Shown: positions 2,089 through 19,749 of the stretch, piece after piece
Numbering within the stretch: the first letter of the stretch is position 1
Layout: each line of letters begins with the position of its first letter
DNA from: a phage
DNA: 30,283 bases
Strand: one strand, 5' to 3'
NCBI GenBank assembly: GCA_021534775.1
Contig: GCA_021534775.1_4809.1
Position numbers and translations under genes: made by a program
The notes under the pieces: model-generated
Databases searched by the model: none
What the model was told of the DNA's origin: nothing
The model's input: the letters and a program-made list of their open reading frames with translations, nothing else

Positions 2089-2091
2089 ATT

Positions 2092-2487: not shown

Positions 2488-2494
2488 GGTTAAC

Positions 2495-2743: not shown

Positions 2744-2818
2744 TAAATCGATTTGAATGCCGTGCTATGCGGCTTTATTATAGTTATTGTTAATCACCCA
2801 AATATTAAAGGTAATGAT

Positions 2819-3199
2819 ATGTCAAATAAAAATGATTCTATGAGCCATACTTACACTAAAGGCAGCGGCACTGCTTTTGGTTCCAGCATCAAAATTGACG
2901 CTCCACCTTGCTATTCTGATGGATTGGAAGTTGGCAACCGTGACTTGACTTGGGTTTTACGTCGCCAATCCGATTTAGAAGAGAAGTTGGAAAATATTGC
3001 GCGTTCTCTTGAAAGTCTGCGCGACCAGCTTTTTGGTTGTTCTGAAGATGATTCTAAATCTCCAGAGTATTGTGTTAATCACGGTTTGATTGATAATATG
3101 CTCGCCATAACCGCTCGATCAATTGGTAAAACTGTGTCCATTGAGTCGTTGATCAGCCAGATTGCGGACGGCTTTGGTGATGCCCATAAGAGTGAATAG
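2819..3199 (+). CDS. Hypothetical protein (126 aa; ORF-track start 2753 is probably too far upstream)
   Basis: Internal in-frame ATG at 2819 preceded by aaagg; the N-terminal 22 codons of the track ORF are hydrophobic read-through of the intergenic region. Confidence 0.5.
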   Translation: MSNKNDSMSHTYTKGSGTAFGSSIKIDAPPCYSDGLEVGNRDLTWVLRRQSDLEEKLENIARSLESLRDQLFGCSEDDSKSPEYCVNHGLIDNMLAITARSIGKTVSIESLISQIADGFGDAHKSE

Positions 3200-3229
3200 T
3201 GGGTGGATGTTGCTTTAACCGTGAATCGT

Positions 3230-3256
3230 GGGTCGCTTAGGGCGGCCCTTTATTTT
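3230..3256 (+). terminator. Intrinsic terminator ending the plus-strand late operon
   Basis: Stem gggtcgc / gcggccc (one G-U pair), 5-nt loop, then tttatttt. Confidence 0.55.
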
Positions 3257-3842
3257 GCCTGCCGCGCAGGAGTGTACTGCAAATTTCCTGTGGGTACAAA
3301 ATAGTACGGTACTGTCTAGGACTTTTTCTTTGAAAAGTTAGTGGACCAAATGTGTCGTATTTTTGATTAGTGTACCGCAAATTCCATCAAGTAGCAAAAC
3401 GCACCAAAAGACCCATGCCATAAAAACCACACGAACGCAATAATCAATCGACGTTACAGTTTCCAGCGTTACAATTCGAAAGCGAATGATTCGACGCATA
3501 ATAATATGAAGCATAATGATTCGAAAGCGAGTGATTGCGTGTAGGATAATATCGGTGGGGATTATTCTAGATGCATGTAATTTCGCATGCGTACTATTTT
3601 CGGACGAAGGGTCGGCATATTCCTCGTTTTAGTTCGGAACGAAGGGAAAGTTTTGCGCCTTTATAAAACAACGACTTACGCGACCCGCCTTAACGGTCCG
3701 ATATAGGTGTCTATATAAAACAAGGACTTACGCGATGTTCTCCATTTAACGTAATACCTGTTATGCGAACTAAGGCGCATCTCGACGAAGATTATGCGAC
3801 GACGAAGGGAAGGATAAAGGAGTTTTCGCGGAGAAGCGCATC
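3257..3842. repeat. Repeat-rich non-coding region between convergent terminators
   Basis: No ORF of 60 aa or more on either strand. Direct repeats of gacgaaggg at 3603, 3638 and 3801; attcgaaagcga(a/g)tgatt twice (about 3474 and 3520); GTAC-containing motifs gtactgcaaattt (3274) and gtaccgcaaatt (3372). Confidence 0.6.
3662..3735. repeat. Pair of 22-bp direct repeats TATAAAACAA(C/G)GACTTACGCGA
   Basis: Copies at 3662-3683 and 3714-3735 with one mismatch, 52 bp apart. Confidence 0.7.
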
Positions 3843-3872
3843 GAGATAGGGGCGAAGAAAAGCCGCGACTAA
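3843..3872 (-). terminator. Intrinsic terminator for minus-strand gene 3900-4190
   Basis: On the minus strand: GCCGCG cttagt CGCGGC followed by ttttcttcg. Confidence 0.55.
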
Positions 3873-3899
3873 GCGCGGCCTATTAGTAACGGAAGGATA

Positions 3900-4190
3900 T
3901 TATAAGGAGACAATTTTAAAATAAGTTACTTCGCCGCCGAGTTGCGGTACAGCGAGATATTCGCCGCCGATTTCGGTAATCGTATAGACGAAGCCGTTAA
4001 TCGTTACGCGGGATGATACGATGTCCTCGTCGCGATACTTGTAAAGGTCGAGGAAGTTGATCGGCTCATAAATAGGTTCGATAGTTGCGTCTACGTTAGA
4101 GAGATAAACGCTCTCTAAGGTTTCGCCAAATACGTTAGAGTTTTCGGAAGTCTCGACGCGAGCGGAACGGATAGCGGCTAAAGTAATCAT
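3900..4190 (-). CDS. Small acidic protein (96 aa), hypothetical
   Basis: ORF with RBS aggag 7 nt upstream of ATG in the conserved context ccaactaggagattattATG; about 14 Asp/Glu versus 6 Lys/Arg. Confidence 0.65.
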   Translation of the reverse strand: MITLAAIRSARVETSENSNVFGETLESVYLSNVDATIEPIYEPINFLDLYKYRDEDIVSSRVTINGFVYTITEIGGEYLAVPQLGGEVTYFKIVSL

Positions 4191-4214
4191 AATAATCTCC
4201 TAGTTGGTCGGGCG

Positions 4215-4235
4215 GGTAGCGACCTATTCGCTACC
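4215..4235 (-). promoter_or_regulatory. 5'UTR stem-loop with conserved AAUAGGU loop (copy 1)
   Basis: Arms ggtagcg / cgctacc around a 7-nt loop, between the promoter and RBS of gene 3900-4190. Confidence 0.5.
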
Positions 4236-4257
4236 TCATCCCCTCTCGATATAAAAC

Positions 4258-4286
4258 ATTATAGTCTTAGTGTACGAAGAAGTAAA
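4258..4286 (-). promoter_or_regulatory. Sigma70-like promoter for gene 3900-4190
   Basis: Minus strand reads TTTACT, 17-nt spacer, TATAAT. Confidence 0.55.
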
Positions 4287-4297
4287 GCACTTTTTCG

Positions 4298-4600
4298 TTA
4301 TTCTGCAATAAAATATTTATAAGCCTTATCGCCTTCTACGTCGATATACTCGACGATAATTAACGCTTCGCCGCGCGGCGTAACCGTCTCGATAAGGGTA
4401 ACGGCTTCGTCGTCGGTCTTCGCGAAGCGGATGGCGCTACGTTCGGCGTACTTAATATCGTCGAAGGAAAGGCCGATGAAGGCGACCGCGCGGACCTTAA
4501 TGGCGCTAGATTCTAGTTCCGCGTTAACGGCGGCGATAAGAGAGCGAACGGTTAAGCGGTCTTCGTCGTAAGTAAGGATGGAAGAGATTAAAGTAGTCAT
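4298..4600 (-). CDS. Small acidic protein (100 aa), hypothetical; ORF-track start 4657 rejected
   Basis: Internal ATG (MTTLISS) preceded by gggag 7 nt upstream; the promoter -10 overlaps the track ATG at 4657, so the transcript starts downstream of it. Confidence 0.6.
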   Translation of the reverse strand: MTTLISSILTYDEDRLTVRSLIAAVNAELESSAIKVRAVAFIGLSFDDIKYAERSAIRFAKTDDEAVTLIETVTPRGEALIIVEYIDVEGDKAYKYFIAE

Positions 4601-4656
4601 AATAAAGCTCCCGATGCTAGTAGAAGAAAGGGCCATCGCCCGTCTCGATATAAACA

Positions 4657-4684
4657 AGTATACGCGAGTGTACGAAGAAGTAAA
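4657..4684 (-). promoter_or_regulatory. Sigma70-like promoter for gene 4298-4600
   Basis: Minus strand reads TTTACT, 16-nt spacer, TATACT; the upstream part (ctttacttcttcgtacact) is nearly identical to the promoter at 4258-4286. Confidence 0.5.
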
Positions 4685-4728
4685 GAAAAAAGATAAAATA
4701 ATTTATCGCATTTTTATCGAAAAAGTGC

Positions 4729-4756
4729 TTTACTTTTTTCTACACTATATTATAAT
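4729..4756 (+). promoter_or_regulatory. Sigma70-like promoter for gene 4825-5139
   Basis: TTTACT, 16-nt spacer, TATAAT. Confidence 0.55.
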
Positions 4757-4779
4757 GTACTCATATCGGGACGGGATGA

Positions 4780-4800
4780 GTTAACGAATAGGTCGTTAAC
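4780..4800 (+). promoter_or_regulatory. 5'UTR stem-loop with conserved AAUAGGU loop (copy 2)
   Basis: Arms gttaacg / cgttaac around the same 7-nt loop aataggt; the stem sequence differs from copy 1 but stays complementary. Confidence 0.5.
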
Positions 4801-4824
4801 GCCTCTCCCAACTAGGAGTTTATT

Positions 4825-5139
4825 ATGGCTATCGTTACCCGCTTTACCCTCGAAAACGCAACCGCCGAAGTCCAGGGCGTTACGCTTACTTACGGCGAAA
4901 TTCTCGCGAAATTCTCCGGCGTTCGCTTAGGCGAAGAAATTAACGACGCGACGGTAATCGAGCAACTCGCTGCTTCTCGCTTAGAGCGCGACGAAAACGG
5001 ATTCTTCGAAGTCGATGCGGAATTAAATTTATGCGGTAAAACGGCGTTTATTAACGAGTTCGAACTCGCCGTTTTAGTTAATTACGATAGCAAAGCTTAC
5101 GCCTTCGCCCTCGAATTAATCGAAGACGACGAAGAGTAA
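4825..5139 (+). CDS. Small strongly acidic protein (104 aa), hypothetical
   Basis: RBS in the context ccaactaggagtttattATG; about 22 Asp/Glu versus 7 Lys/Arg; C-terminus ELIEDDEE. Confidence 0.7.
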   Translation: MAIVTRFTLENATAEVQGVTLTYGEILAKFSGVRLGEEINDATVIEQLAASRLERDENGFFEVDAELNLCGKTAFINEFELAVLVNYDSKAYAFALELIEDDEE

Positions 5140-5219
5140 GAGAGGATTTTTAGAGCGTCGTGCGCGGCGCTTTAATAAAATTCTTTCGCGCCTAGCGCCC
5201 TAACAAATAGGAGTTTATT

Positions 5220-5846
5220 ATGGTTAGCTTAAATCGCTTTTCTACTAGCGGCGACGTTATCGCAACTAAGACCGCCGACCTCGTTGCATTCTATAATGCA
5301 AATTCCGGCTCAAAACCGATTAAGAAGTTTGCGGACCGCCGGACCGCCGAGACTCGCGTAATCGCGTTAATCGAGTCCTTAAACGCGCTCGATGAGCCGT
5401 CCAACGAATCGCCCATCCCCGACGCGAAGCCGCGCGAGGAAGTGTCCAGCGATGTAAAAACGCATAAGGCGCGTGCGGTCGTTAAAAAGGCCGAGCCGAC
5501 GCAGGAAGAACTCGACGCGATGACCGACGAAGAGTATGAAGCCTTCGTTAAGAGCGGTTTAAACGATAGTGCAAATTGCGTAGTGCAAAATGGAACTCCT
5601 TCCCATCGCCGTTCGAATAGCGAAGGCATTGCAAAAAGTTGGGATAATAAGGAAGTGGCGCAAAAGCGTCTTACCCGTAACGGCGTTATGGTCGAGGGTG
5701 TAGGCGAGTTCAAATCGGTCCGCGTAGCGTTCGCCGCGCTGGGCTTACCGGATAGCAAGCACATTCGCTTCCGCATGAAGCTTAAAGAAGCTGGACGCTT
5801 GAACTTCGAGTTCGGCAACAAGTCCTATACCTTCCAGATTATCTAA
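5220..5846 (+). CDS. Hypothetical protein (208 aa)
   Basis: Same RBS context aataggagtttattATG; contains two tandem ATAGTGCAAA motif copies at 5566-5591. Confidence 0.55.
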   Translation: MVSLNRFSTSGDVIATKTADLVAFYNANSGSKPIKKFADRRTAETRVIALIESLNALDEPSNESPIPDAKPREEVSSDVKTHKARAVVKKAEPTQEELDAMTDEEYEAFVKSGLNDSANCVVQNGTPSHRRSNSEGIAKSWDNKEVAQKRLTRNGVMVEGVGEFKSVRVAFAALGLPDSKHIRFRMKLKEAGRLNFEFGNKSYTFQII

Positions 5847-5852
5847 TCGAAT

Positions 5853-5876
5853 GGCGGCCCTTCGGGGTCGCTTTTC
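5853..5876 (+). terminator. Intrinsic terminator with UUCG tetraloop
   Basis: gcggccc ttcg gggtcgc followed by tttt. Confidence 0.6.
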
Positions 5877-5896
5877 ATAGTGCAAATTGGTGGCTT

Positions 5897-6160
5897 ATGA
5901 ATACGCTCATTCTCATCGCTACGTTGTCCATCGGAAGTGGTCGCACCTTATCCCTTTACGACCATAGTGCAAATTGTGCTTATCCTACGCGAGTTGCGGC
6001 AATAGTTAATAGTGCAAATCGAATGCTATTCGAGACTTGTTGGCGGGTCGATAACGAGAAAGGGCGCATCGTCTTAGGTTATAGTGCGAATCTGCTGGTG
6101 GAGTCGTTCGATTGGACGGTTGAAGGTCGTAAATTGTTACGTAAAGTGACTAAAAGATGA
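5897..6160 (+). CDS. Questionable ORF (87 aa)
   Basis: Short RBS spacing (ggtgg, 3 nt). Three in-frame motif copies translate as HSAN, NSAN and YSAN, so the frame may be a by-product of the DNA motif array. Confidence 0.3.
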   Translation: MNTLILIATLSIGSGRTLSLYDHSANCAYPTRVAAIVNSANRMLFETCWRVDNEKGRIVLGYSANLLVESFDWTVEGRKLLRKVTKR

Positions 6161-6274
6161 CTTATAATAATACACTTTCTAACGCGTTTATGGTTGTAAC
6201 CTTCCCCGTCGTATTACCGATGGCCCTAGAAGTGGAGAAAATGTGTTCCAGGGCCGTTTTATAGTGCAAATTGG

Positions 6275-6763
6275 CTAGTGGCGGGAGAATTGCTCACCTT
6301 CTTTGGCCGCCTCTCCAAAATCCTTGTAGAAATCGTCCATGGAACGGCCCATTTTACTATTGCCGTTTTCATCAATCATCGTGATGCCGTAGATGATATT
6401 CAGTTCACGAATAGCATTAAGCTTGGCTGACGCCGCGACTTCTGGATCACGCACAAGCTTGACCAAATTGTGAATTGCACCTTTTACGCTCCACAAATCC
6501 TTGAGTGGCATCTCTTCCATACGCTTTTTGAAGCGCATCTTGTAGTATGGATTGCGTTGCGTGCAAAGGATTCGCTGGCCAGTGTAGTTATCCGTTGCAA
6601 CTTCCATTCCAAATACTAGTGCAAAAGCTGCGCGCATGTCATGACCCTGAATAACAAGGTCAATGAACTCATCGAATAAAGCCTGATTGTGCTCTGCGAA
6701 TCGCGGGTCTTCAAAGTCTTCAGGCATCGCTACATAATCTTGACTCATAGTGCAAAATCCCAT
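6275..6763 (-). CDS. Hypothetical protein (162 aa; start may be 6748)
   Basis: Minus-strand ORF. Both candidate ATGs are created by the motif (the reverse complement of CAT in cATAGTGCAAAT). Confidence 0.55.
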   Translation of the reverse strand: MGFCTMSQDYVAMPEDFEDPRFAEHNQALFDEFIDLVIQGHDMRAAFALVFGMEVATDNYTGQRILCTQRNPYYKMRFKKRMEEMPLKDLWSVKGAIHNLVKLVRDPEVAASAKLNAIRELNIIYGITMIDENGNSKMGRSMDDFYKDFGEAAKEGEQFSRH

Positions 6764-6783
6764 AGTGCAAATTAATAGTGTGA

Positions 6784-6812
6784 ATTATACAATGGATGAA
6801 CATTATATTCAA
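6784..6812 (-). promoter_or_regulatory. Sigma70-like promoter for gene 6275-6763
   Basis: Minus strand reads TTGAAT, 17-nt spacer, TATAAT; the -10 and 5'UTR overlap the three tandem motif copies. Confidence 0.5.
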
Positions 6813-6976
6813 GTGCAGATTGATGTTCATTATGGCTATAAACGTACACAAATCATAATGCTGCGTGGATTGCGGACCGTGGTGCGTGGTGTACTGTTTG
6901 ATACGTATAAAAGAAATCCATCCCTTTCGCCGCTTGTTATGCAAATCAATGACTTAGCCGCTGCTGGCTGGTTGAA

Positions 6977-7341
6977 GCGTATCATGACGTATCATCCGTA
7001 TTGCCGCAAGTCTTTGTTTTTACTTATATCTTACGGATGATACGTTAAATATATAAATTAACATAAGTATGAGGATATGAAAAAAATTAATATAAATGTT
7101 TTTAAAATGGAGTTAATTAATTTTTCGAATTCTATATATAACGATGCTCAGTTTTATCCGTATCATCCGTAAGATTAATGTACAAGCCAGGCGCGGCAAG
7201 GGCTGTACACTCTTACGGATAGAAAACCATGACGTATCATGACGTAAGGGTGTACCACTTTTGAAAATAGGAATCCAGGAACGGCGCGGCCTGCGGCCAT
7301 GATACGCTTAATTTTTAACCGTATTTTAGGCGTATCAAATG
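6977..7341. repeat. Cluster of direct and inverted repeats flanking an AT-rich core
   Basis: Perfect 15-bp inverted repeat cttacggatgatacg (7030-7044) / cgtatcatccgtaag (7159-7173) around an AT-rich segment of about 110 bp. Further copies at 6987-7000 and 7212-7249; GC-rich islets ccaggcgcggcaagggctg and ccaggaacggcgcggcctgcggcc. Confidence 0.65.
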
Positions 7342-7606
7342 TGTTCAAAACCACGTTTCACGACCCAAGAAAATCCAATCCATAGATAGAATCTAACAAA
7401 CACCACGGACCAATAGCCATACACTATTAAAATATTAACAATCCTGTTTATATATATTTCTAAATATTTCCGCACAATTAATAAATAAAACATCACCTCA
7501 TAATTATTCCATCGCAAAACACGACCCAAACGACAAAAGGCCGCATAAAGCGACCCATTGCACACATTCCATTCTTCGAAACACGTAAACGAGTGTTCTT
7601 TATCCG

Positions 7607-8140
7607 CTACAATTTAGGCATAAATCCTTTGTCAGTCCGCCTTTTTATCTCTCCCTCTATCATTTTATTTGTGACTCTATAACCAATCCTTTCCAATTCC
7701 AGCAACACTTCCTTTTGGTATTTCTTTATTTTCACAATATCAACTGTGTCCCTCCAATAAGAAAATACCTTTTGAATTATTTTTTCATCCATTTTATATC
7801 TTGCAGTCGTCCTGTATTTCATTTTAAATATAGAGTTGATTGCGTCAGTCTTCAACCACTCGCCTCTCAACTCAGGGTGATCATCCCAAAGAGCTATGGC
7901 AAACTCTTGCGGGCTTTTACATCTTTTTCTAAGCTCAATTATATAGTCGACCGTTTTCGTTTTATTATCCAACCTTTCGCGGCAAACTGTGCACTCTTCC
8001 TTGAGCAGCCAGTCAACCTTGTTACTTCGCGACGTTGATTCACCATCCCTTCTGTACCTACCGCAAATGCTTATGCCTTCATTATCCAAGAAGTAATGCA
8101 AGTCTTTAGAGTATTTCGCTTTACGCCAAAAGCCGCCCAT
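7607..8140 (-). CDS. Hypothetical protein (177 aa), AT-rich composition
   Basis: Strong RBS aaggaggg; TGATG stop/start overlap with the upstream gene; Cys pairs (CGRY...CTVC) suggest possible zinc binding. Confidence 0.55.
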   Translation of the reverse strand: MGGFWRKAKYSKDLHYFLDNEGISICGRYRRDGESTSRSNKVDWLLKEECTVCRERLDNKTKTVDYIIELRKRCKSPQEFAIALWDDHPELRGEWLKTDAINSIFKMKYRTTARYKMDEKIIQKVFSYWRDTVDIVKIKKYQKEVLLELERIGYRVTNKMIEGEIKRRTDKGFMPKL

Positions 8141-8559
8141 CACCCCTCCTTAACGACCCGATAAGCAACAATCTTTGCACCAGTCGGGCTTGTGACTTTA
8201 TCCCATGTCAAACTATCCGAAGGAACGGCCTCTTTTGATTTATAACCGTTGAGTAATTCAAACTCAACCATCTTCCCAGGCACCGGATTTTCGCCGCCAA
8301 ACCACACGGTCCACGCATCCTCCTTAATCGGTACATTGCACTCCTTGTATTTCTCAACAGCCTCGCTAAAAAGCTTTATAACATCTTCAGCGGCTTTGAT
8401 GCGCTCGCGGTATTGCTCAATCTCTTTTGTTAGCGACTCATTAAGCTTGAGCAGTGATTCATAGTCCTCATATTCAACGTAGCCGCCTTCATCGTCCTTT
8501 ACAACTTCGCAGGTGCAAGCGTGCTGCGTGCAATAATCAACATCATAACGTTGTGTCAT
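8140..8559 (-). CDS. Hypothetical protein with a C-terminal GG-x-NPVPGK domain
   Basis: ORF with internal start MTQRYD overlapping the upstream stop; C-terminal about 55 aa paralogous to the C-terminus of 9714-10223. Confidence 0.6.
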   Translation of the reverse strand: MTQRYDVDYCTQHACTCEVVKDDEGGYVEYEDYESLLKLNESLTKEIEQYRERIKAAEDVIKLFSEAVEKYKECNVPIKEDAWTVWFGGENPVPGKMVEFELLNGYKSKEAVPSDSLTWDKVTSPTGAKIVAYRVVKEG

Positions 8560-9047
8560 TTTAAGCTCCAAGTATTTAACAGGGTGTTTCGTAAGTTCTG
8601 CACTTCTATCTTAAGCAGGTCAATTTGCAAGTCACGATGGGCCAGTTCAGCGGCGATGTCTGACTTGCTATAAAGTCCTTCATGCGTCATGGCATAGATG
8701 TGCCGCGTATAATAGCCGCCCTCGTCGAGTTGCTCGATGTCACGTTGCCCGACTGCGTATTGGTTATCGGTCGACGGCGCTTGGTCCTGGATTTTGATCG
8801 CTGCCACTTCCTTTAATGAATCGCGTGATGCGGGTCTGTTCTCTTCAAACATCTTTCCATCACCAATTTGCTTGCACCAAAGCGAATCGCCGATTGCGTA
8901 TCCCCACTGGCCGCGCCAATCGTTCCATGCAGGCTTCCCCTCATACGCCCAGATGGTTCCGTTAGAGTCACGCGCAACAAATCTTGCACGAGCGTCTATT
9001 TCGTATTCTTTACCTTCAAAATTGATGCGCTGCGTTTTGTTAGTCAT
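8556..9047 (-). CDS. Hypothetical protein (163 aa)
   Basis: ORF; start and stop overlaps with neighbours. Confidence 0.6.
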   Translation of the reverse strand: MTNKTQRINFEGKEYEIDARARFVARDSNGTIWAYEGKPAWNDWRGQWGYAIGDSLWCKQIGDGKMFEENRPASRDSLKEVAAIKIQDQAPSTDNQYAVGQRDIEQLDEGGYYTRHIYAMTHEGLYSKSDIAAELAHRDLQIDLLKIEVQNLRNTLLNTWSLK

Positions 9048-9376
9048 GATGCATCCTTAGTTGGATAGAATTTAGGGTTGTTCTTATAGAACGCCTTGAG
9101 CCATGCCTTTGCTTCGGCAATGCTGCTGAACTCTTCCTTGGAGAGTCCGGTGCGGTCCTCGCCTGCGACCTTGAAATGGATGCGCACCTTGAGCCGAAGG
9201 TTGGTTGCTCTCGCGTAGTGGCCTTCATAGCCGTCATGGTTAAGACTTACTATCTCGGCAAGTATCTCGCAGTCTTCTTTATTGGGATTGCCGCTGTAAC
9301 AAATCGGCCAGCCGCGACGTTGGAATGATCTGTATTGACCTGTTGGCTCAGGGTCCACGTACCATTTCAATTTCAT
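9044..9376 (-). CDS. Hypothetical protein (110 aa)
   Basis: ORF; ATGA overlap with upstream gene. Confidence 0.6.
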   Translation of the reverse strand: MKLKWYVDPEPTGQYRSFQRRGWPICYSGNPNKEDCEILAEIVSLNHDGYEGHYARATNLRLKVRIHFKVAGEDRTGLSKEEFSSIAEAKAWLKAFYKNNPKFYPTKDAS

Positions 9377-9714
9377 TTAACCTTCTCCAATTGGAATCTT
9401 GTTTCTGGAAAGCCTGCAACAAACATGTCACGGCCCTCGACATCACGCTTCACGAACCAGCGCATTCCGCTGACTACCGTGAAGACAATTTGCCTTCCAT
9501 CAATAATAAGTCCTTTTGCCTCATAAAGCAAATAGGTCTGACCGACCTTGAAGCTCGACAGCTCTTTGCTTGTGCTGGTGCACTTGAGCCGCCACTGGGT
9601 GAGATTGGATTCGCTCGCCTCGATGTCAACAACCTTACCGCGCAGCGGCGATGTGCGCTGAAGCTCTTGCATTTGCTCGTCGAACGTTAGCTCACGGCCT
9701 TCTTGCTCTTCCAT
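9373..9714 (-). CDS. Hypothetical protein (113 aa)
   Basis: ORF; overlap with neighbours. Confidence 0.6.
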   Translation of the reverse strand: MEEQEGRELTFDEQMQELQRTSPLRGKVVDIEASESNLTQWRLKCTSTSKELSSFKVGQTYLLYEAKGLIIDGRQIVFTVVSGMRWFVKRDVEGRDMFVAGFPETRFQLEKVK

Positions 9715-10223
9715 TATTCCTCCACGACTTTGTATTTGATGACATCGCCGTCGCGGTGGCGCTCAATCTTCTCCCAGCGCAATTCATTTGATGCAATCGG
9801 CTTTGTTGCTGTAGCGCCGTCGCGCAACATGTAAAGCACCTTCTTACCTGGGACTGGATTCAAGTCTCCACCATCCCAATCAATCCAACCGTCACTCGCC
9901 ATTGGCTTATCCTTCAAATGATCATACTTCTCACCGATGTGGGCGATTGGATGTTTGCTTTTGTAAAAGAATGCCAACGCGACGTCGTAGCACGGGTGAC
10001 TATGGGAAAGACAAACATCATCACACCAAAGCTCCATGGTGCGCGACTTAAGCGTCATCATATTAGTATACCACTCGATGGTGTAGTGGTCGTTAAGGTT
10101 GCCGACGATATAGAAGTTGCGACAAAACACCATATCGTTTTCCGACTTCTCGCGGCTATAACTTCTGATTGCGCCAGCCTTCACAGCCATTTCCAATACT
10201 GCTTCGAGTTGTTCGATTTTCAT
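9714..10223 (-). CDS. Hypothetical protein with a C-terminal GG-x-NPVPGK domain (paralogue of 8140-8559)
   Basis: C-terminus WDGGDLNPVPGKKVLYMLRDG...SNELRWEKI...IKYKVVEE aligns with WFGGENPVPGKMVEFELLNG...SDSLTWDKV...IVAYRVVKE. Confidence 0.6.
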   Translation of the reverse strand: MKIEQLEAVLEMAVKAGAIRSYSREKSENDMVFCRNFYIVGNLNDHYTIEWYTNMMTLKSRTMELWCDDVCLSHSHPCYDVALAFFYKSKHPIAHIGEKYDHLKDKPMASDGWIDWDGGDLNPVPGKKVLYMLRDGATATKPIASNELRWEKIERHRDGDVIKYKVVEE

Positions 10224-10239
10224 TGTTGCTTTCCCCTAT

Positions 10240-10404
10240 TTATTTGATGGATGTTGTGTAAGAATATACTTTCTTGCGTCGCTTTGCCTTGTACAAACAA
10301 CGGTCGCCGCTGCGATTGTAAATGTTAAGCCAGGTGCGTTTACTAATCTTATACGGTACATGCGGCTTAATGAATAACAAACGGGCCTTAAGATTTGATG
10401 TCAT
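10240..10404 (-). CDS. Small basic protein (54 aa, MTSNLKARLLF...KRRKKVYSYTTSIK)
   Basis: Hand-translated ORF below the track threshold; its ATG overlaps the stop of 10401-10706 (ATGA). Confidence 0.4.
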   Translation of the reverse strand: MTSNLKARLLFIKPHVPYKISKRTWLNIYNRSGDRCLYKAKRRKKVYSYTTSIK

Positions 10405-10706
10405 AACTTACCTCCAAACGTTGCAACACGGATTCCGCAACGTTCAAATGTTAACATAGGGTTAAGGCCGTCGGCGCAAGTAATGAATAAATCATCAACA
10501 ACAAGCTCATACCCTCCGACGTAAAGTATAAACTTATCATCGGTGTTATTTAATAAAAGGATTGCGGCGATGCCGCCTTGATTATTACTAAATCCTATTG
10601 CATTCTCTCCGCTGACTTGCGCCTCGTTAAACTCTTTAATTGCACCACAGTTAACGGCTTCTTGCAAAACGTTCAAAATCTTTTTCTTCATCGCTTCGGT
10701 ACTCAT
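10401..10706 (-). CDS. Hypothetical protein (101 aa)
   Basis: ORF in operon context. Confidence 0.6.
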   Translation of the reverse strand: MSTEAMKKKILNVLQEAVNCGAIKEFNEAQVSGENAIGFSNNQGGIAAILLLNNTDDKFILYVGGYELVVDDLFITCADGLNPMLTFERCGIRVATFGGKL

Positions 10707-10708
10707 AA

Positions 10709-11005
10709 TTAAATCCCCTTAAACATAAAGCCGCTGATGATGGATTGATAATAGGTGATGCCGCGTATCTCTACAACCTTGCACCGATGGGCTTGGCCCT
10801 TGTATTCTATCCACCATACCTCCATGTCAGGCAAATTGTGGCGACAAGTCAACCAGCCATGAAACAGCTCGTATGCCTCACCGATTTTGAACGGCTTAAG
10901 CACGCCGTAAGAGTCATTCCTCAATACGCAGACAACATCTTGGCTGTCTTTGTATACAGCATCATGAAACAATCCGCTTCTGCCAAACCTTTCGTCGCAA
11001 CTCAT
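10709..11005 (-). CDS. Hypothetical protein (98 aa; ORF-track N-terminal extension rejected)
   Basis: Strong RBS aaggagaggtga before the internal ATG (MSCDERF); the upstream 23 codons of the track ORF lie in a terminator/promoter element. Confidence 0.6.
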   Translation of the reverse strand: MSCDERFGRSGLFHDAVYKDSQDVVCVLRNDSYGVLKPFKIGEAYELFHGWLTCRHNLPDMEVWWIEYKGQAHRCKVVEIRGITYYQSIISGFMFKGI

Positions 11006-11033
11006 AATCACCTCTCCTTTGCTTGATGAACTA

Positions 11034-11061
11034 AGTATAATACAGGCAAATAAAAAGGCAA
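11034..11061 (-). promoter_or_regulatory. Sigma70-like promoter (TTGCCT, 16 nt, TATACT)
   Basis: Read on the minus strand; abuts the terminator hairpin. Confidence 0.5.
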
Positions 11062-11081
11062 GCATATAGCTCACCTTTTTG
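11053..11081 (-). terminator. Intrinsic terminator hairpin overlapping the promoter -35
   Basis: Minus-strand RNA: aaaaa GGUGAGC uauau GCUUGCC uuuuu (stem includes G-U pairs). Confidence 0.4.
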
Positions 11082-11083
11082 AA

Positions 11084-11344
11084 TTAAATATTCTTCGCCT
11101 CTTCGTGGAGGCCGACCGACCTTAGTTTGCGTCGCAAGTAAGCTTTCTTCTCGCTCTCCCGCCCGGCTGGAGTAACGCGCCATCGTAATGTGTTCTCCAG
11201 ATTCTTGCGTCTGTTGTGCTCGTCGAGTAGCTCTACCAATGCCTTTGCATCGTCGAGTGTTAACGCCACGGGCCGCGACCCATTAACGGCTTGTCGAAGC
11301 TTCCGCGCGGCAACGGCCAACTTATTCATCGGACCCTTGTTCAC
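11084..11344 (-). CDS. Hypothetical basic protein (86 aa)
   Basis: ORF; ATGA overlap with upstream gene. Confidence 0.6.
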   Translation of the reverse strand: MNKGPMNKLAVAARKLRQAVNGSRPVALTLDDAKALVELLDEHNRRKNLENTLRWRVTPAGRESEKKAYLRRKLRSVGLHEEAKNI

Positions 11345-11724
11345 GGCAACTCCTTATTCATCGGCGTTATGGATAAAACTTTTACTTCTGCAATACGCTT
11401 GTTATGTTCGCGCTTAATTTGTAGAATCTGAGATTGTATGCGCGATATTATGTGCGGTGTAATTCCCTCTTTTACATTTAGCCAGACAGAAATTTGAATT
11501 GAGTCAATGTCTGTTATCAATGTTGTTGTCGACCCAGAGTCGCATCGCTCTCCATAACTTAATTGGCGGTGATAAGATGACGTCTTGAATGCAATAAGTA
11601 ACATCCTCTGTTCAAGTTCGCTTTCGCTCTTAGGATTCTTATCACAGTTAATCATGTGCTGCACGAACTCTTCGTGTGGAAGGTGCATCACATCGTGGCA
11701 ATAAGGGCAACGCTTCATTCTCAT
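11341..11724 (-). CDS. Hypothetical protein with N-terminal Cys/His cluster (CPYCH...H...H...C)
   Basis: ORF; possible zinc-finger-like N-terminus. Confidence 0.6.
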   Translation of the reverse strand: MRMKRCPYCHDVMHLPHEEFVQHMINCDKNPKSESELEQRMLLIAFKTSSYHRQLSYGERCDSGSTTTLITDIDSIQISVWLNVKEGITPHIISRIQSQILQIKREHNKRIAEVKVLSITPMNKELP

Positions 11725-12253: not shown

Positions 12254-12284
12254 AATCACCTCACTTGTTCGTCTTGATGAAAAG

Positions 12285-12334: not shown

Positions 12335-12337
12335 TAT

Positions 12338-12532: not shown

Positions 12533-12550
12533 AAATCACCTTTTTGACAT

Positions 12551-15038: not shown

Positions 15039-15686
15039 TTATCCTGTGGCCTGCATACTGCGTACATACTTCTGCTCTAATGAATAGATGAAGTCGGCGA
15101 CAGTCAATCCCTTCGTGTGCCATTCATACATGGTGAAGCCTGTATTCAGGAAATAGCCGCGCACCTTGTCCATCGCTTCAGCTTCCTCCATTGAAGCCAT
15201 CAGCGCGGCGACGTTGTCATAAGAAGGCACAAATCCCTTCTTGCGTAGCGCATTGCGCAAATCTTTAGTTCTGAATCCAATCTTGCAAGGGTCATCACGG
15301 CCCGTGGATGATGCAACCTTCGGTAGCGCAAGGAACTCTTTAAGGAACATTGCAATGTTCAAGTCTCCTGCGTCATCAAGCTTCTGGATTCGGTTGCGAC
15401 CGCGCCCCTTGAATTCACTCGCACGAGGGTGAGCGCCAAAACAGTGCGCCCCTTCCAGTTTAGGGTCAATGATCATTACATCTTTACCAATGCGCAGCTC
15501 TACGTAGTAAAGATAAGACTCATCGACAAGCTTTGTACGTTTGCAAGTGATTGAGTCCTTATCATAGCCAAAGCCACGCAACACTGTTGAAATCATCCGG
15601 TTCATTTCTTCGCCGTGAACATCACTTTCTTTGTTCAGTTCACCAAGATGTTGAAAGAATTTAGCGATGTTGATTGCTTTATTCAT
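15039..15686 (-). CDS. Hypothetical protein (215 aa)
   Basis: ORF; start overlaps the stop of the helicase-like gene. Confidence 0.65.
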   Translation of the reverse strand: MNKAINIAKFFQHLGELNKESDVHGEEMNRMISTVLRGFGYDKDSITCKRTKLVDESYLYYVELRIGKDVMIIDPKLEGAHCFGAHPRASEFKGRGRNRIQKLDDAGDLNIAMFLKEFLALPKVASSTGRDDPCKIGFRTKDLRNALRKKGFVPSYDNVAALMASMEEAEAMDKVRGYFLNTGFTMYEWHTKGLTVADFIYSLEQKYVRSMQATG

Positions 15687-17356
15687 CAGAATTCATCCTT
15701 ATCTCTTCCTAAAGAACGTTTGCGTTCAATAACCTTCTTCAAGAATTCAATATCTTCAGGGTCAGACTCATCGCGGATAAGATACGCTAAGATGGTCATT
15801 AAATCAGAAATGTATTCTCCTGCTTCATTCTTAATCAGCGGCGTAAAGTAACCGCGCTGGTTGCGATAGGTCGCAGGCTCAAAGCCAAGCTTTGACATGT
15901 GCGGCGCAAGGGTACGAGAGAAAGGCGACTTGCCGCACTTCGCTCTGAATCCCATAGCGATAGCACCACTGGTGATGTGCCAGCGTCCGCTGTGATGTCG
16001 GTCATAAGGCGCGGTGATGACGACTTCAACAAGGTCGTTGTCAACCATCTCATCACGGATAACGCCGCGCGCACGTTCCATTTCGTTCTTGCTGAACTCA
16101 GTAAGCATGCGAGATGTTTCACCAACAAACGCGTTATAGCCTGCTTCGCCGTGCTTCTCCATCCATGCAGCGCACTCAGCCATCAACTGCCAAACGTCTT
16201 CTTTCAAAGTAGAAAGGTCAGCTTGGAAGTCTTTCGACCAGTTCGGTTGCCCGTCCTTGTCAGCGAGTTGGCCAACAAATATGGGATACACACGACGGTT
16301 GCCCGTGTCATCACGCTGCATGCCTGCGTATTCGTTGCCGTCCATGATAGCAATCCACTGGCGTGGTTTTACCTGCGTATCTTCAAATTTGAAGTCCAGG
16401 TCATCTTCCGTCTTAGTCAGGAATGCTTTCATGTTTTCGATGTCGGCCTTTTTAAAGCCTGTCATCTCGCCAACGTTCGCTATGATTGAGCGGCCCGTAA
16501 TAGCTCGCAAGAACGGGTTGAAGTTCTGCGCGGCTAAGTTCAACGGAATCGGTGTTGCGTGGCGGTCGTTCATAATAGCTTCGCAAAGCAGCTTGCTAAA
16601 ATAACTCTTCCCTGCGTTCTGGCCGCCGATGAGCGCGATGGAGATTGGCGCTTGACAGCCAGGGTTGGTCAGGCGATTATAGAGCGATAGCCAAAAATAC
16701 ACACCGATTTGTCGGTTTAACTCTGTATCGAACGGTCGGAATAGCTCGATAAGGTATTTCTCAATGCGCGCAGTACCGTCCCATTCAGGCAGCTTCTTGT
16801 AGAAGAAGTCCATCAGGTCGTCGCGCTGATAACGCATGGCCCATTCCTTATAGGATTGAGCGACCTGACGTGAGTTTGGGTTGGACAGCCCTGCTGCGTC
16901 GACAGCGGCAACTATCTCTGTGACTTCCAAGGTACGGTCAGTGAATGTTTCGCCGCGATGGTCGACTAAGCGCCCACGAAAAGTATCTTTGTGAGGGAAT
17001 GGAACAACGCCACTTCCCTTATCAAACAACGCGTCGAAAACCGCATAACGGTTCATGTCACTCGTCCGGTCTGCTTGTAGAACGAAGTCATCTTTGGTCG
17101 GCTTGTAGTGAGGGAACTTGATTACCTGAAGTGAGGCGAGCAAGCGTGCTCTTTCAACCAAGTCTTCTTCACCGTAGCATTCCATGCGCTCTGAATCTTT
17201 TTCAACGGCTTTATGTTGAAGGCTGATTTTAGCTCTGGTGCCTTGTTGCTCTGCTGCCTGCATTTCTTCCGAAACGCCTGCATCTTGAATTTCGTCAAAG
17301 ATTGCACCAAATTCATCACCTGTATCCTCTGGAAGATTGTCATTATTAATTGACAT
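15686..17356 (-). CDS. P-loop NTPase, likely primase-associated (VirE/D5-like) replicative helicase
   Basis: 556-aa ORF with Walker A GGQNAGKS and a hydrophobic stretch ending in acidic residues (SIIANVGEM); lies directly downstream of the primase-like gene. Confidence 0.7.
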   Translation of the reverse strand: MSINNDNLPEDTGDEFGAIFDEIQDAGVSEEMQAAEQQGTRAKISLQHKAVEKDSERMECYGEEDLVERARLLASLQVIKFPHYKPTKDDFVLQADRTSDMNRYAVFDALFDKGSGVVPFPHKDTFRGRLVDHRGETFTDRTLEVTEIVAAVDAAGLSNPNSRQVAQSYKEWAMRYQRDDLMDFFYKKLPEWDGTARIEKYLIELFRPFDTELNRQIGVYFWLSLYNRLTNPGCQAPISIALIGGQNAGKSYFSKLLCEAIMNDRHATPIPLNLAAQNFNPFLRAITGRSIIANVGEMTGFKKADIENMKAFLTKTEDDLDFKFEDTQVKPRQWIAIMDGNEYAGMQRDDTGNRRVYPIFVGQLADKDGQPNWSKDFQADLSTLKEDVWQLMAECAAWMEKHGEAGYNAFVGETSRMLTEFSKNEMERARGVIRDEMVDNDLVEVVITAPYDRHHSGRWHITSGAIAMGFRAKCGKSPFSRTLAPHMSKLGFEPATYRNQRGYFTPLIKNEAGEYISDLMTILAYLIRDESDPEDIEFLKKVIERKRSLGRDKDEF

Positions 17357-18666: not shown

Positions 18667-19749
18667 CTATTTTATGCCACCTGCACGACGATTTATCATG
18701 TCAAGTTGATTCTCAATATAAGGCATGACGATTGCTTCAACAAAAGCGGTCCAACCTTTCTTGCCTTCCCCTTTCCGGTGACAGTCGTGGGCGCAACCGA
18801 ACACAAACTCATGTTCTGCACCAGGAATAGGGCCACGAAAGTAAGCGCCATACGGGTCTCCGTTGGTGTGCTCTTCACCCCAAGGACAGATTATGCGGCA
18901 CTTGCCTGACATATTTTCAATAACGTCGCCATCAGACCCTTCACCCATCTTGTTGCGCGCTAGAATCTGCTGGGCTATTTTATACCAAACAGCATCGTAC
19001 TTGTATTCATCGACGTCAATTTGAATCTCACGCTTTTGCGGCATGACGACGTGAAAGCCGAATGCCTGACAAATGTCTTCGATGGTGTAGCGCAATGAGT
19101 AGTCTGCATGGACAAGTCGGCAGCGGAACGGGTCACCGTTCTCATCGACATATTTATAGGGGCCGTCATGAGTCACACGCTTGTTGTTGATGCACCCAGG
19201 AACACGGCCCACGCGCGTTACGTCTTTAATCGTGTTGTCGCCGCCCTTCTTGAGTACCATGTTAACGAAAGACCCAAGGAACGCTTTGAACTGAATAAGA
19301 TGGTCAATCGGTTCTTTAAAGAAGTACCAAAGCTGGTGGTTGTTCGGTGACGTCTCGACGATGACAGTTGGCTTCAGTCGCTCGAAAAAGAACTCCAAAT
19401 CTAAATCGCCTTTGGACCCTTTACCGTGACCGATGTCATCAACCATCATCGCCATGCCGTGACCAAAGGCCGACTCTGTACGCCAGTATCGCATCTCACC
19501 CGTCTTTGGGTTGGGAGACTTACGCATTGAACTGATGCAAGCATAGCCGTTTTGGTGCTGCATGAGCGGCTTGCCCAACTTCCAAGGCTTAGGCCAGAAA
19601 CTGCTGTTAATCTTCTTGCCGCGCTCGTCGGTCTGCACCGTTGCTTCAGGCGCAAACACCGTCATGACGCGTTCATCTTCTGGAATGCCTCTTTGGAGTT
19701 CTGTTAAAAACTCTTCGATTATTTTTGCTTCTTCTCTTAAACTAGCCAT
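18667..19749 (-). CDS. Putative DNA primase (archaeo-eukaryotic primase / prim-pol-like) with C-terminal Cys/His cluster
   Basis: MMVDDIGHG (DxD-type motif), SPNNHQLWYF (His motif), RVGRVPGCINNK, and C-terminal CRIICPWGEEH...FGCAHDCH; sits next to the P-loop helicase-like gene. Confidence 0.5.
   Translation of the reverse strand: MASLREEAKIIEEFLTELQRGIPEDERVMTVFAPEATVQTDERGKKINSSFWPKPWKLGKPLMQHQNGYACISSMRKSPNPKTGEMRYWRTESAFGHGMAMMVDDIGHGKGSKGDLDLEFFFERLKPTVIVETSPNNHQLWYFFKEPIDHLIQFKAFLGSFVNMVLKKGGDNTIKDVTRVGRVPGCINNKRVTHDGPYKYVDENGDPFRCRLVHADYSLRYTIEDICQAFGFHVVMPQKREIQIDVDEYKYDAVWYKIAQQILARNKMGEGSDGDVIENMSGKCRIICPWGEEHTNGDPYGAYFRGPIPGAEHEFVFGCAHDCHRKGEGKKGWTAFVEAIVMPYIENQLDMINRRAGGIK

What the first reader, a model, noticed from the sequence alone, without database searches (positions are those of the whole stretch)
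6977..7341. Perfect 15-bp inverted repeats flanking an AT-rich core
cttacggatgatacg (7030-7044) and its exact reverse complement (7159-7173) bracket about 110 bp of very AT-rich sequence, with further copies or half-copies at 6987-7000, 7212-7220 and 7228-7249 and adjacent GC-rich islets. The region lies at the 3' end of the long minus-strand operon. This architecture (an AT-rich unwinding-like element between repeated protein-site-like sequences) is compatible with a replication origin, a recombination or insertion scar, or a miniature inverted-repeat element.
Basis: seen in the sequence. Interest (0 to 1): 0.45.

Follow-up and report, generated by a model that had tools for sequence, protein, structure and literature searches.

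The report
Origin-like repeats around phage genome end
The inverted repeats belong to a roughly 550-base, nearly palindromic set of short protein-binding repeats around an AT-rich core; it looks like a replication origin of a known type, and in related phages the physical end of the packaged DNA lies in that core, next to the small terminase gene.

Summary
The perfect inverted repeat is 17 bp (7028-7044 / 7159-7175) around a 114-bp core of 17.5% GC, and it is the innermost pair of nested repeats spanning about 6870-7412.

The window is a Wifcevirus-type E. coli myophage. Five related GenBank records start at the base matching window 7108, the boundary of a 3.7-3.8 kb direct terminal repeat. 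That is 7 bp from the dyad centre and 345 bp upstream of the small terminase gene (6275-6763, minus strand).

The repeat units and a box across the cut (AAAATGGAGTTAATT) are conserved while their flanks diverge. The same layout, with different motifs, lies upstream of terS in Kylevirus, Myosmarvirus, Pbunavirus and two integrated elements.

Two results point to a replication origin:
- Each phage carries a second, paralogous copy upstream of a head gene.
- The phage encodes a full-length structural homologue of SaPI1 Rep1, an initiator-helicase that binds iterons on both sides of an AT-rich centre just downstream of rep.

Best reading: a Rep-type iteron origin whose AT-rich centre also carries the terminase cut and packaging start. 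A transposon or insertion scar is rejected. No binding or replication was tested.

The parts
7028..7044 (-). Left arm of the 17-bp perfect inverted repeat: the innermost repeat unit on the terminal-repeat side, ATCTTACGGATGATACG.
   Evidence: 15 of 17 columns are invariant across the related genomes; G7039A is present in most relatives.
7045..7158 (.). AT-rich core, 114 bp at 17.5% GC: the presumed unwinding region, which contains the genome end.
   Evidence: An equivalent AT trough lies 320-550 nt upstream of terS in every lineage surveyed.
7104..7118 (.). Conserved box AAAATGGAGTTAATT spanning the mapped genome end (cut between 7108 and 7109).
   Evidence: The records for WFC, WFH, Ro157lw, SP13 and Mansfield all begin at the base matching window 7108. 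14 of 15 columns are invariant while the flanks score 0.81 and 0.73. The box is kept in the distant relative L020 and occurs once in the whole WFC genome.
7150..7175 (+). Right array, TTTTATCCGTATCATCCGTAAGAT, which includes the right arm of the inverted repeat (7159-7175).
   Evidence: 7154-7175 has identity 0.97 while both flanks fall to 0.73 and 0.70. In the second clade it is a tandem CGTATCATCCGTATCATCCGTAAG.
6975..7000 (+). Outer left array, AAGCGTATCATGACGTATCATCCGTA: tandem units with a 10- and 9-bp period. It forms a 14-bp perfect inverted repeat with 7032-7045.
   Evidence: D7, D10, I7, I12. 23 of 26 columns are invariant.
7001..7011 (+). ATTGCCGCAAG box. Its inverted partner GCGGCAA lies at 7192-7198, giving a centre near 7100.
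   Evidence: Read directly. CGTATTGCCGC-type boxes recur beside the left array in L020, L022, L021 and site C.
7178..7207 (.). GC-rich hairpin-like islet, TGTACAAGCCAGGCGCGGCAAGGGCTGTACA.
   Evidence: Related CCAG(T)CGCGGC islets occur in Mansfield, L022 and MyoSmar.
7210..7224 (-). Inverted unit ATCTTACGGATAGAA, which pairs with 7164-7174.
   Evidence: (D17, I22). A TACGGATAG unit sits at the equivalent place in Mansfield.
7228..7249 (+). Array CATGACGTATCATGACGTAAGG, two units with a 10-bp period.
   Evidence: (D7).
7298..7338 (.). Outer units CATGATACGCTT (minus orientation, a 12-bp perfect inverted repeat with 6975-6986) and TTAGGCGTATCAA (plus orientation).
   Evidence: (I12, I16).
6871..6892 (.). 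Outermost inverted-repeat arm, GGACCGTGGTGCGTGGTGT. Its partner is 7400-7412.
   Evidence: I10; CCGTGGTG occurs only at these two places.
7400..7412 (.). Partner of the outermost inverted repeat.
   Evidence: (I10).
6275..6763 (-). Small terminase subunit gene (terS), E217 type.
   Evidence: Matches PDB 7UXE 'Small terminase' at E = 6e-34. The review PMC9611059 identifies 7UXE as E217 TerS.
6784..6829 (-). Two overlapping sigma-70-like promoters reading into terS.
   Evidence: 10 of 12 matches each. Consensus matches only.
3325..7108 (.). The direct terminal repeat as it appears in this collapsed or permuted sequence (3,784 bp by the WFC record).
   Evidence: Mansfield's PhageTerm repeat is 3,673 bp, and its far boundary falls about 80 nt away, near window 3407.
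15686..17356 (-). Rep1-like initiator-helicase (VapE-like SF3 ATPase plus a C-terminal winged helix): the candidate binder of the repeats.
   Evidence: Pfam VapE-like domain at 1.6e-28. PDB 7PDS at E = 4e-11 and, by profile, 1.1e-24. Model pLDDT 86.6. Foldseek top six hits are all 7PDS, E about 3e-16 over about 480 columns.
18667..19749 (-). RepB-type primase gene upstream of the rep-like gene, giving the order pri then rep.
   Evidence: Pfam RepB_primase at 4.5e-36.

Best explanation
The flagged inverted repeat is the innermost pair of an iteron-type replication origin (site A, about 6870-7412). Short 9-10-bp units (core CGTATCAT / ATCCGTAAG) sit on both sides of a 114-bp AT-rich centre in opposite orientations.

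Proposed mechanism (inferred): the phage's Rep1-like self-loading initiator-helicase binds the units through its C-terminal winged helix, melts the AT-rich centre and loads on either side, with the RepB-type primase as partner.

The same AT-rich centre is also where the packaged genome begins. The terminase cuts between 7108 and 7109, inside the conserved box AAAATGGAGTTAATT. This makes the left end of the virion DNA and the boundary of the 3.7-3.8 kb direct terminal repeat, 345 bp upstream of terS. The element is therefore a combined origin and packaging-start region inside a conserved rep - site - terS cassette.

Shown:
- The repeats, their symmetry and their conservation.
- Where related records place the genome end.
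- The homologies of TerS and Rep.
- The paralogous second site.

Inferred:
- That Rep binds the units and melts the core.
- That the terminase cut depends on the box or on the opened core.

My separate estimates: 0.85 that the genome end or packaging cut lies in this core, and 0.65 that the repeats are Rep iterons. The confidence given here (0.55) is for the composite reading.
For: Genome end:
- WFC, WFH, Ro157lw and SP13 carry the repeat at both ends and start at the same homologous base, window 7108.
- That base is 7 bp from the dyad centre of the 17-bp inverted repeat.
- Pantoea phage Kyle starts 6 bp from the centre of its own 34-nt inverted repeat, inside an 11-nt palindrome.
- The MyoSmar PhageTerm boundary lies 387 nt upstream of its terS, at the edge of the AT-rich stretch between 26-nt inverted-repeat arms.
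- In Pbunavirus JG024, 36 of 161 long reads start at 59,376 +/- 5 (PMC10913387). That is the edge of the AT trough about 600 nt upstream of terS.

Conservation:
- The right-arm island and the cut box are nearly invariant while their flanks diverge.
- The same layout appears in relatives whose TerS is 47-69% identical.
- An AT trough with lineage-specific repeated 7-mers is found upstream of terS in every lineage surveyed.

Origin reading:
- The Rep-like protein is a full-length structural homologue of SaPI1 Rep1.
- PMC9371898 describes SaPI origins as 6-12 iterons immediately downstream of rep, with an AT-rich centre, at least two iterons on each side in opposite directions, and pri upstream of rep.
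- The rep-like gene ends immediately upstream of site A in Pbunavirus, MyoSmar, L050 and L056.
- In two integrated elements the order is rep, then a 640-660-bp iteron gap, then terS.
- A paralogous second site (site C) lies upstream of the DUF2213 head gene. Local alignment of site A to site C scores 85 in Wifcevirus, 133 in JG024 and 143 in Kyle within one genome, and 85 for MyoSmar site A against site C of the related phage MTx. Shuffles score about 25 +/- 3.5 and cross-lineage controls score 24-34. This implies one lineage-specific factor acting at both sites.
Against: - No binding, melting, replication or cleavage was tested. Every functional step is inferred.
- In this phage the site is 8.3 kb from the rep-like gene but only 345 bp from terS, so here it stays linked to terS, not to rep.
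- The units are 9-10 bp rather than the 5-6 nt of SaPI iterons, and the array is much longer.
- The second site carries no known genome end, so any link between the repeats and cutting is not simple.
- In MyoSmar the end lies 57 nt from the centre of the large inverted repeat, and in JG024 at the edge of the core. The dyad-centre rule holds only for Wifcevirus and Kyle.
- Some record starts may have been copied from earlier records rather than determined independently.
- The far boundary of the terminal repeat differs by about 80 nt between WFC and Mansfield.
- E217 TerS showed no DNA binding in vitro (PMC9611059), which says little either way.
Confidence: 0.55

Rival explanations
1. A pure packaging site. 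The repeat arrays are binding sites for the small terminase ring on both sides of the cleavage point, as in SPP1 pacL/pacC/pacR, P1 pac or lambda cosB, and the element has no role in starting replication.
For: - The genome end lies at or near the centre of the arrays.
- terS is the immediate neighbour in every lineage, and it stays adjacent where the rep-like gene does not.
- The 9-10-bp tandem spacing would suit successive subunits of a ring.
- The packaging series of JG024 starts here.
Against: - A paralogous array with the same motifs, order and AT-rich core is kept in four lineages upstream of a head gene, where no genome end has been reported. A terminase-only site gives no reason for this.
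- The layout and its position downstream of rep match the published Rep/iteron origin, and a Rep1 homologue is encoded.
- The one element unique to site A is the cut box, not the arrays.
Confidence: 0.25
2. A transcriptional control region. The arrays bind a phage regulator of late promoters, and the AT-rich cores are promoters or UP-like elements for terS and for the head-gene operon.
For: - Both sites lie upstream of late-type genes, terS and the DUF2213 gene with the major capsid gene.
- The JG024 paper predicted a sigma-70 promoter at 13,050-13,100, inside the core of site C, and noted AT-rich boxes and intergenic motifs of unknown function (PMC3008698).
- Promoter-like hexamers overlap the cut site, TTAACT-16-TATATT at 7116-7089 on the minus strand.
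Against: - Promoter-like hits in 6500-7800 are no more frequent than in shuffles, 7 against 5.5 +/- 2.6.
- The best promoters for terS (6829-6784) and for WFC_00026 lie outside the arrays.
- More than ten motif copies spread over about 400 bp around a 100-bp AT-rich core is unusual for an operator.
- This reading does not explain why the genome end lies in the core.
Confidence: 0.08
3. A miniature inverted-repeat transposable element or an insertion or recombination scar.
For: Only the superficial form: terminal-looking inverted repeats around an AT-rich segment.
Against: - The segment is present in all 17 related genomes aligned, with no empty site.
- There are no target-site duplications.
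- The arms belong to larger arrays that are conserved across genera with different sequences.
- There is no copy in 5,426 complete E. coli genomes.
Confidence: 0.01

Closest known systems
SaPI replication origin with its Rep initiator-helicase (Staphylococcus aureus pathogenicity islands; PMC9371898)
   Same: - The encoded Rep1-like protein has an N-terminal domain, an SF3 ATPase and a C-terminal winged helix. Foldseek gives E about 3e-16 over nearly the full length.
- Multiple short iterons lie on both sides of a central AT-rich region in opposite orientation.
- A primase gene lies upstream of rep.
- In Pbunavirus, MyoSmar, L050, L056 and two integrated elements the site lies immediately downstream of rep.
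   Different: - The units are 9-10 bp, not 5-6 nt.
- The element spans about 550 bp with nested symmetry.
- In this phage it lies 8.3 kb from rep.
- A second paralogous copy exists in the same genome.
- The AT-rich centre carries the physical genome end.
- Binding and melting are untested.
Phage P4 ori plus crr, bound by the alpha primase-helicase (from my own knowledge; not checked here)
   Same: An SF3 primase-helicase with a C-terminal winged-helix origin-binding domain, and two separated cis sites carrying the same short repeats in direct and inverted orientation.
   Different: P4 is a small satellite replicon whose cos site lies elsewhere. Whether the second site here is needed in cis for replication is unknown.
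Terminase recognition sites with repeats on both sides of the cut: SPP1 pacL/pacC/pacR, P1 pac, lambda cosB (the review PMC9611059, covers SPP1 only; the rest is my own knowledge)
   Same: The cleavage point is flanked by repeated protein-binding motifs, lies just upstream of terS, and sits in AT-rich, probably bent DNA.
   Different: In those systems the repeats bind TerS or are methylation sites, and there is one copy per genome. They serve headful or cos packaging, whereas this phage has a 3.7-kb direct terminal repeat. TerS binding is untested here.
T7 concatemer junction (from my own knowledge)
   Same: A phage with direct terminal repeats, short repeat arrays next to the repeat boundaries, and origin-associated elements (phiOL, phiOR) near the ends that are implicated in concatemer processing.
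   Different: T7 has a 160-bp repeat, heptamer direct-repeat arrays, its own RNA polymerase and no Rep/iteron origin at the boundary.
Putative pac site of Pbunavirus JG024 at 59,376 (PMC10913387)
   Same: It is the homologous position: the AT-rich core between repeat arrays, downstream of the VapE-like gene and upstream of the homologous terS.
   Different: JG024 is reported as circularly permuted with headful packaging, its motifs are different (GTAATTTGG), and the paper does not describe the architecture.

Membership tests
Rep/iteron origin of the SaPI type | A Rep-family self-loading initiator-helicase (SF3 ATPase plus a C-terminal winged helix) is encoded by the same element. | tested here: met
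   Window ORF 15686-17356 (minus strand): Pfam VapE-like domain 1.6e-28; PDB 7PDS 4e-11 and, by profile, 1.1e-24; AlphaFold pLDDT 86.6 with winged-helix topology at 436-504; Foldseek top hits 7PDS at about 3e-16.
Rep/iteron origin of the SaPI type | Six to twelve short iterons, with at least two on each side of a central AT-rich region pointing in opposite directions. | tested here: met
   At least 10 unit copies between 6975 and 7338 on both strands. The innermost units are inverted around a 114-bp core of 17.5% GC. The units are longer (9-10 bp) than in SaPIs.
Rep/iteron origin of the SaPI type | [quoted passage not shown] | tested here: not met
   In the window the site is 8.3 kb downstream of the rep-like gene, with about 20 small ORFs between them. 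The feature is met in Pbunavirus, MyoSmar, L050, L056 and two integrated elements.
Rep/iteron origin of the SaPI type | Rep binds the iterons specifically, melts the AT-rich region, and replication starts there. | not testable with these tools
   This needs gel-shift and permanganate footprinting assays, marker-frequency sequencing or plasmid replication assays.
Terminase cleavage or packaging-start site (pac, cos or terminal-repeat boundary) | The physical end of virion DNA, or the start of the packaging series, maps to the site. | tested here: met
   Shown through related records, not through reads of this phage: Mansfield PhageTerm; WFC, WFH, Ro157lw and SP13; Kyle; MyoSmar; JG024 read starts.
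Terminase cleavage or packaging-start site (pac, cos or terminal-repeat boundary) | Close linkage to the small terminase gene. | tested here: met
   terS begins 345 bp from the cut. The AT-rich core lies 320-550 nt upstream of terS in every lineage surveyed.
Terminase cleavage or packaging-start site (pac, cos or terminal-repeat boundary) | The recognition sequence is unique in the genome. | tested here: inconclusive
   The cut box AAAATGGAGTTAATT occurs once in the WFC genome, but the repeat arrays occur a second time at WFC 15,940-16,250.
Terminase cleavage or packaging-start site (pac, cos or terminal-repeat boundary) | TerS binds the site and TerL cuts it. | not testable with these tools
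   E217 TerS showed no DNA binding in vitro, according to PMC9611059. The homologous site was not tried there, as far as the review says.
Miniature inverted-repeat transposable element | Presence/absence polymorphism, multiple copies in the host or phage, and target-site duplication. | tested here: not met
   Present in all relatives. No match in E. coli genomes. No flanking duplication is visible.

The most novel reading that the evidence does not exclude
The genome end is defined by the origin itself. Rep opens the AT-rich centre of site A, and this opened or replicating structure, together with the cut box, is what the terminase cuts. Replication launched from site A through the adjacent 3.7 kb would supply the second copy of the terminal repeat. 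This would be a replication-coupled route to long direct terminal repeats. The rep - origin/packaging site - terS cassette would then move as one specificity module between phages and integrated elements. The second site would be an ordinary origin, or a cis partner like P4 crr, that lacks the cut box.
Probability: 0.2. Interest if true: 0.8.

Novelty: new variant of a known kind. Interest (0 to 1): 0.55.

Why it matters
- Packaging recognition in the Pbunavirus/Wifcevirus group is unresolved. The solved E217 TerS did not bind DNA in vitro, and a T4-like mechanism without a pac site has been suggested (PMC9611059). This work gives a concrete, conserved candidate site to test with TerS and with Rep.
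- It gives candidate replication origins for a phage group widely used in therapy, for which my literature searches found none described.
- The genome end sitting in the centre of a Rep-type origin, inside a conserved rep - site - terS cassette also found in integrated elements, suggests a physical link between starting replication and forming genome ends. That link could be tested directly.
- For genome engineering and rebooting of these phages, it matters where the ends and the cis-acting sites lie.

Tried and rejected
- **Promoters and terminators.** Promoter-like hits are not above chance. Only the terS promoters and the operon terminator are convincing, and both lie outside the arrays.
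- **Known RNA families.** An Rfam scan of 6600-7700 at E <= 1 found nothing.
- **Copies in the host.** A megablast of the region against complete E. coli genomes found no match, which argues against a mobile element.
- **Same motif at the other terminal-repeat boundary.** It is absent near window 3325. That boundary sits midway between two direct repeats, AGTGTACYGCAAATT, and Mansfield's boundary is about 80 nt away, so it remains uncertain.
- **ECO71P1 record end as a terminus.** Rejected: the start and end of the record overlap by about 50 nt, an assembly artefact.
- **Logan contig ends as termini.** Rejected: the contigs run 40-170 nt past the core.
- **Host-factor sites, by eye.** TTATCCGTA resembles a DnaA box but differs in the critical CACA, and TATCATCCGTAAG does not fit the IHF consensus. 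Both were dropped.
- **The 31-codon ORF across the cut (7078-7173, annotated in Bas100).** Its start codon is lost in most relatives, so it is unlikely to be a gene.
- **Single-sequence AlphaFold of the Rep-like protein.** It failed at pLDDT 34 and was redone with an alignment.
- **Transcription start sites of Pbunavirus 14-1.** The supplement of PMC10914365 is not held.
- **Pfam and PHROGs on terS.** Neither names it; the PDB sequence search did.

Full report
**What is in the sequence**

The reported arms are exact, and the perfect match is 17 bp: 7028-7044 and 7159-7175. None of 300 dinucleotide-preserving shuffles of the flagged region reached 15 bp. The 114 bp between the arms is 17.5% GC, against 45.9% for the window.

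The arms are built from a short unit (CGTATCAT, continuing as CCGTAAG or GACGTA). The unit recurs on both strands, often as tandem copies 9-10 bp apart:
- plus strand: 6978, 6988, 7159 (with a half unit at 7150), 7233, 7243, 7331
- minus strand: 7037, 7214, 7299, 6900

CGTATCAT occurs 7 times in the window against 0.9 expected, with 6 copies in 6978-7306. All five ATCCGTA heptamers of the 30-kb window lie here.

The pair is the inner part of a larger imperfect palindrome. 6860-7108 aligns with the reverse complement of 7109-7420 at z = 6.0 against shuffles, while the direct-orientation control scores at chance. Further nested pairs are TTGCCGC/GCGGCAA (7002/7192), 6975-6986/7298-7309 and 6880-6892/7400-7412.

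The whole 6764-7606 stretch is non-coding. It lies between the terminator of the long minus-strand operon (7556-7538) and the promoters of the next gene.

**What the window is, and where the genome ends**

The window is a Wifcevirus-type E. coli myophage: 29 related records, closest to vB_Eco4M-7n and WFC.

[quoted passage not shown] Its first base aligns to window 7108 on the minus strand. WFC, WFH, Ro157lw and SP13 carry the repeat at both ends and begin at the same homologous base. The junction in the window reads AAAAT|GGAGTTAATT.

The left end of the virion DNA therefore lies inside the AT-rich core, 7 bp from the dyad centre of the 17-bp inverted repeat. The terminal repeat corresponds to window 3325-7108.

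The ORF 6275-6763 (minus strand), 345 bp from the cut, is the small terminase. It matches PDB 7UXE at E = 6e-34, and 7UXE is E217 TerS.

**Conservation**

In the 17 related genomes aligned:
- The right-arm island 7154-7175 has identity 0.97, while its flanks fall to 0.73 and 0.70.
- The 15-bp box across the cut has identity 0.99, while its flanks are 0.81 and 0.73.
- The left arm carries G7039A in most relatives, so the perfect repeat is particular to a few genomes.
- A second clade replaces everything to the right of the island but keeps a tandem CGTATCATCCGTATCATCCGTAAG.

A contig whose TerS is 69% identical keeps the units, their order and orientation, and the cut box. Contigs with 47-54% identical TerS keep the layout (direct units, inverted units, about 110 bp of AT-rich core, direct units) with altered unit cores.

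A survey of E217-type terS loci found a sharp AT trough 320-550 nt upstream of terS in every lineage, flanked by lineage-specific repeated 7-mers.

Genome ends in other genera agree:
- Pantoea phage Kyle begins 6 bp from the centre of a 34-nt inverted repeat and inside an 11-nt palindrome.
- The MyoSmar PhageTerm boundary is 387 nt upstream of terS, at the edge of the AT-rich stretch between 26-nt inverted-repeat arms, though 57 nt from their centre. The record of its relative MTx starts at about the same distance upstream of terS.
- In the Pbunavirus JG024, 36 of 161 long reads start at 59,376 +/- 5. That is the edge of the AT trough upstream of terS.

**The unexpected second site**

A scan of the whole WFC genome showed that the same units are not unique to the genome end. 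A second cluster lies at WFC 15,940-16,250, in the 420-bp gap upstream of the DUF2213 head gene and outside the window. It has the same order of elements: TTGCCGC box, direct units, spacer, inverted units, an 85-bp AT-rich core, direct units, a GCGCGGC islet, an inverted unit, direct units. It lacks the cut box, which occurs once in the genome.

The equivalent gap exists in JG024, Kyle and MTx. Local alignment of site A against this second site scores:

| Comparison | Score |
|---|---|
| Wifcevirus, same genome | 85 |
| JG024, same genome | 133 |
| Kyle, same genome | 143 |
| MyoSmar site A vs MTx site C (related phages) | 85 |
| Shuffles | about 25 +/- 3.5 |
| Cross-lineage controls | 24-34 |

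. The two sites therefore evolve in concert within each lineage and share nothing between lineages. This is the signature of one lineage-specific DNA-binding factor acting at both sites.

**Which factor?**

The window encodes a VapE-like protein (15686-17356, minus strand). It matches PDB 7PDS, SaPI1 Rep1, at E = 4e-11, and 1.1e-24 by profile. A model built from 40 homologues (pLDDT 86.6) has a C-terminal winged-helix topology. Its six best PDB matches are all chains of 7PDS, at E about 3e-16 over nearly the full length.

The paper describing that structure summarises SaPI origins as follows (PMC9371898):
- 6-12 short iterons immediately downstream of rep
- an AT-rich region at the centre
- at least two iterons on each side pointing in opposite directions
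- a primase gene upstream of rep

Site A has this layout. A RepB-type primase gene lies upstream of the rep-like gene. In Pbunavirus, MyoSmar and two other lineages the rep-like gene ends immediately upstream of site A.

Two integrated elements, in Cupriavidus and Caballeronia, have the order integrase ... rep, then a 640-660-bp gap with their own iterons in both orientations, then an E217-type terS. So rep - site - terS is a conserved cassette. In Wifcevirus and Kyle, extra genes have been inserted between rep and the site, which stayed beside terS.

**Interpretation**

The most economical reading is a composite. The repeats are Rep iterons and the core is the unwinding element of an origin. 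The same core, marked by a box unique to site A, is where the terminase makes the cut that forms the left genome end and the terminal-repeat boundary. The second site is then a further origin or a cis partner, as crr is for P4 ori (my own knowledge).

My estimates:

| Reading | Probability |
|---|---|
| The genome end lies in this core | about 0.85 |
| The repeats are Rep iterons | about 0.65 |
| The composite reading | about 0.55 |
| Pure terminase site, with TerS reading the arrays | about 0.25 |
| Transcriptional control region | about 0.08 |
| Transposon or insertion scar | about 0.01 |

- The pure terminase site explains the position of the end and the linkage to terS, but not the conserved second copy.
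- The transcriptional reading fits earlier notes on JG024 intergenic motifs but not the genome end or the size of the arrays.
- The transposon or scar reading is excluded.

Nothing here tests binding, melting, replication or cleavage.

**Novelty**

Both ingredients are known kinds: Rep/iteron origins, and terminase sites next to terS. My literature searches found no description of these sites in Wifcevirus or its relatives. They found only a 'putative packaging site' coordinate in JG024 and unexplained intergenic motifs. I know of no described precedent, apart from loose parallels in T7, for three features: the genome end sitting in the centre of the origin, the paralogous second site, and the cassette shared with integrated elements. 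I therefore rate this a new variant of a known kind, of moderate interest.

Noticed in passing
Outside the window: WFC MK373777 15,928-16,348 (L030); also JG024 12,859-13,369 (L040), Kyle 17,571-18,085 (L060), MTx (L036 about 1,980-2,500): A paralogous copy of the whole repeat-and-AT-core element lies in the non-coding gap upstream of the DUF2213 head gene in four lineages. It evolves in concert with the element at the genome end and lacks the cut box.
   Followed up: yes
window 3271-3285 and 3369-3383, around 3324|3325: The far boundary of the terminal repeat (by the WFC record) lies midway between two direct repeats, AGTGTACYGCAAATT, 98 bp apart. None of the CGTATCAT units are there. Mansfield's PhageTerm boundary is about 80 nt away, near window 3407, so this end is not settled.
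   Followed up: partly
window 6746-6771: The box CATAGTGCAAA occurs twice, overlapping the terS start. Similar ATAGTGCA(G/A)AT boxes recur between the site and terS in L020, L021, L022 and L023. Their function is unknown; they may be an operator or a 5' UTR element.
   Followed up: no
window 7078-7173 (+): A 31-codon ORF with a good ribosome-binding site crosses the genome end and is annotated in Bas100 (Bas100_0090). Its start codon is lost in most relatives, so it is probably not a gene.
   Followed up: partly
window 3465-3552: An imperfect tandem repeat of about 43-45 nt (72% identity) lies inside the terminal repeat, close to its far boundary.
   Followed up: no
L061 (Cupriavidus contig) 2501-5354 and L062 (Caballeronia GCA_023631105.1) 3-5359: Integrated elements with an integrase carry rep (VapE-like), then an iteron gap, then an E217-type terS. 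They look like satellites or prophages that share this phage group's replication and packaging cassette.
   Followed up: partly
L024 2245-2610 (MyoSmar gp007) and L029 506-1087 (JG024 PJG24_078): ORFs annotated as hypothetical proteins lie across the repeat-and-AT-core element in these records. They are probably not real genes.
   Followed up: no
L019 / L028 (ECO71P1, OP172789): The two ends of this record overlap by about 50 nt inside the AT-rich core. This is an assembly overlap, not a mapped terminus.
   Followed up: yes
window 19750-19909: A 160-bp divergent intergenic region lies between the RepB-type primase operon and the RecD-like helicase operon. It is another place where an origin or early promoters could lie.
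   Followed up: no
window 7607-15686 (-): About 8 kb of small ORFs of unknown function separates the rep-like gene from the site in Wifcevirus. In Pbunavirus and MyoSmar the two are adjacent, so this block looks like an insertion of accessory early genes.
   Followed up: partly
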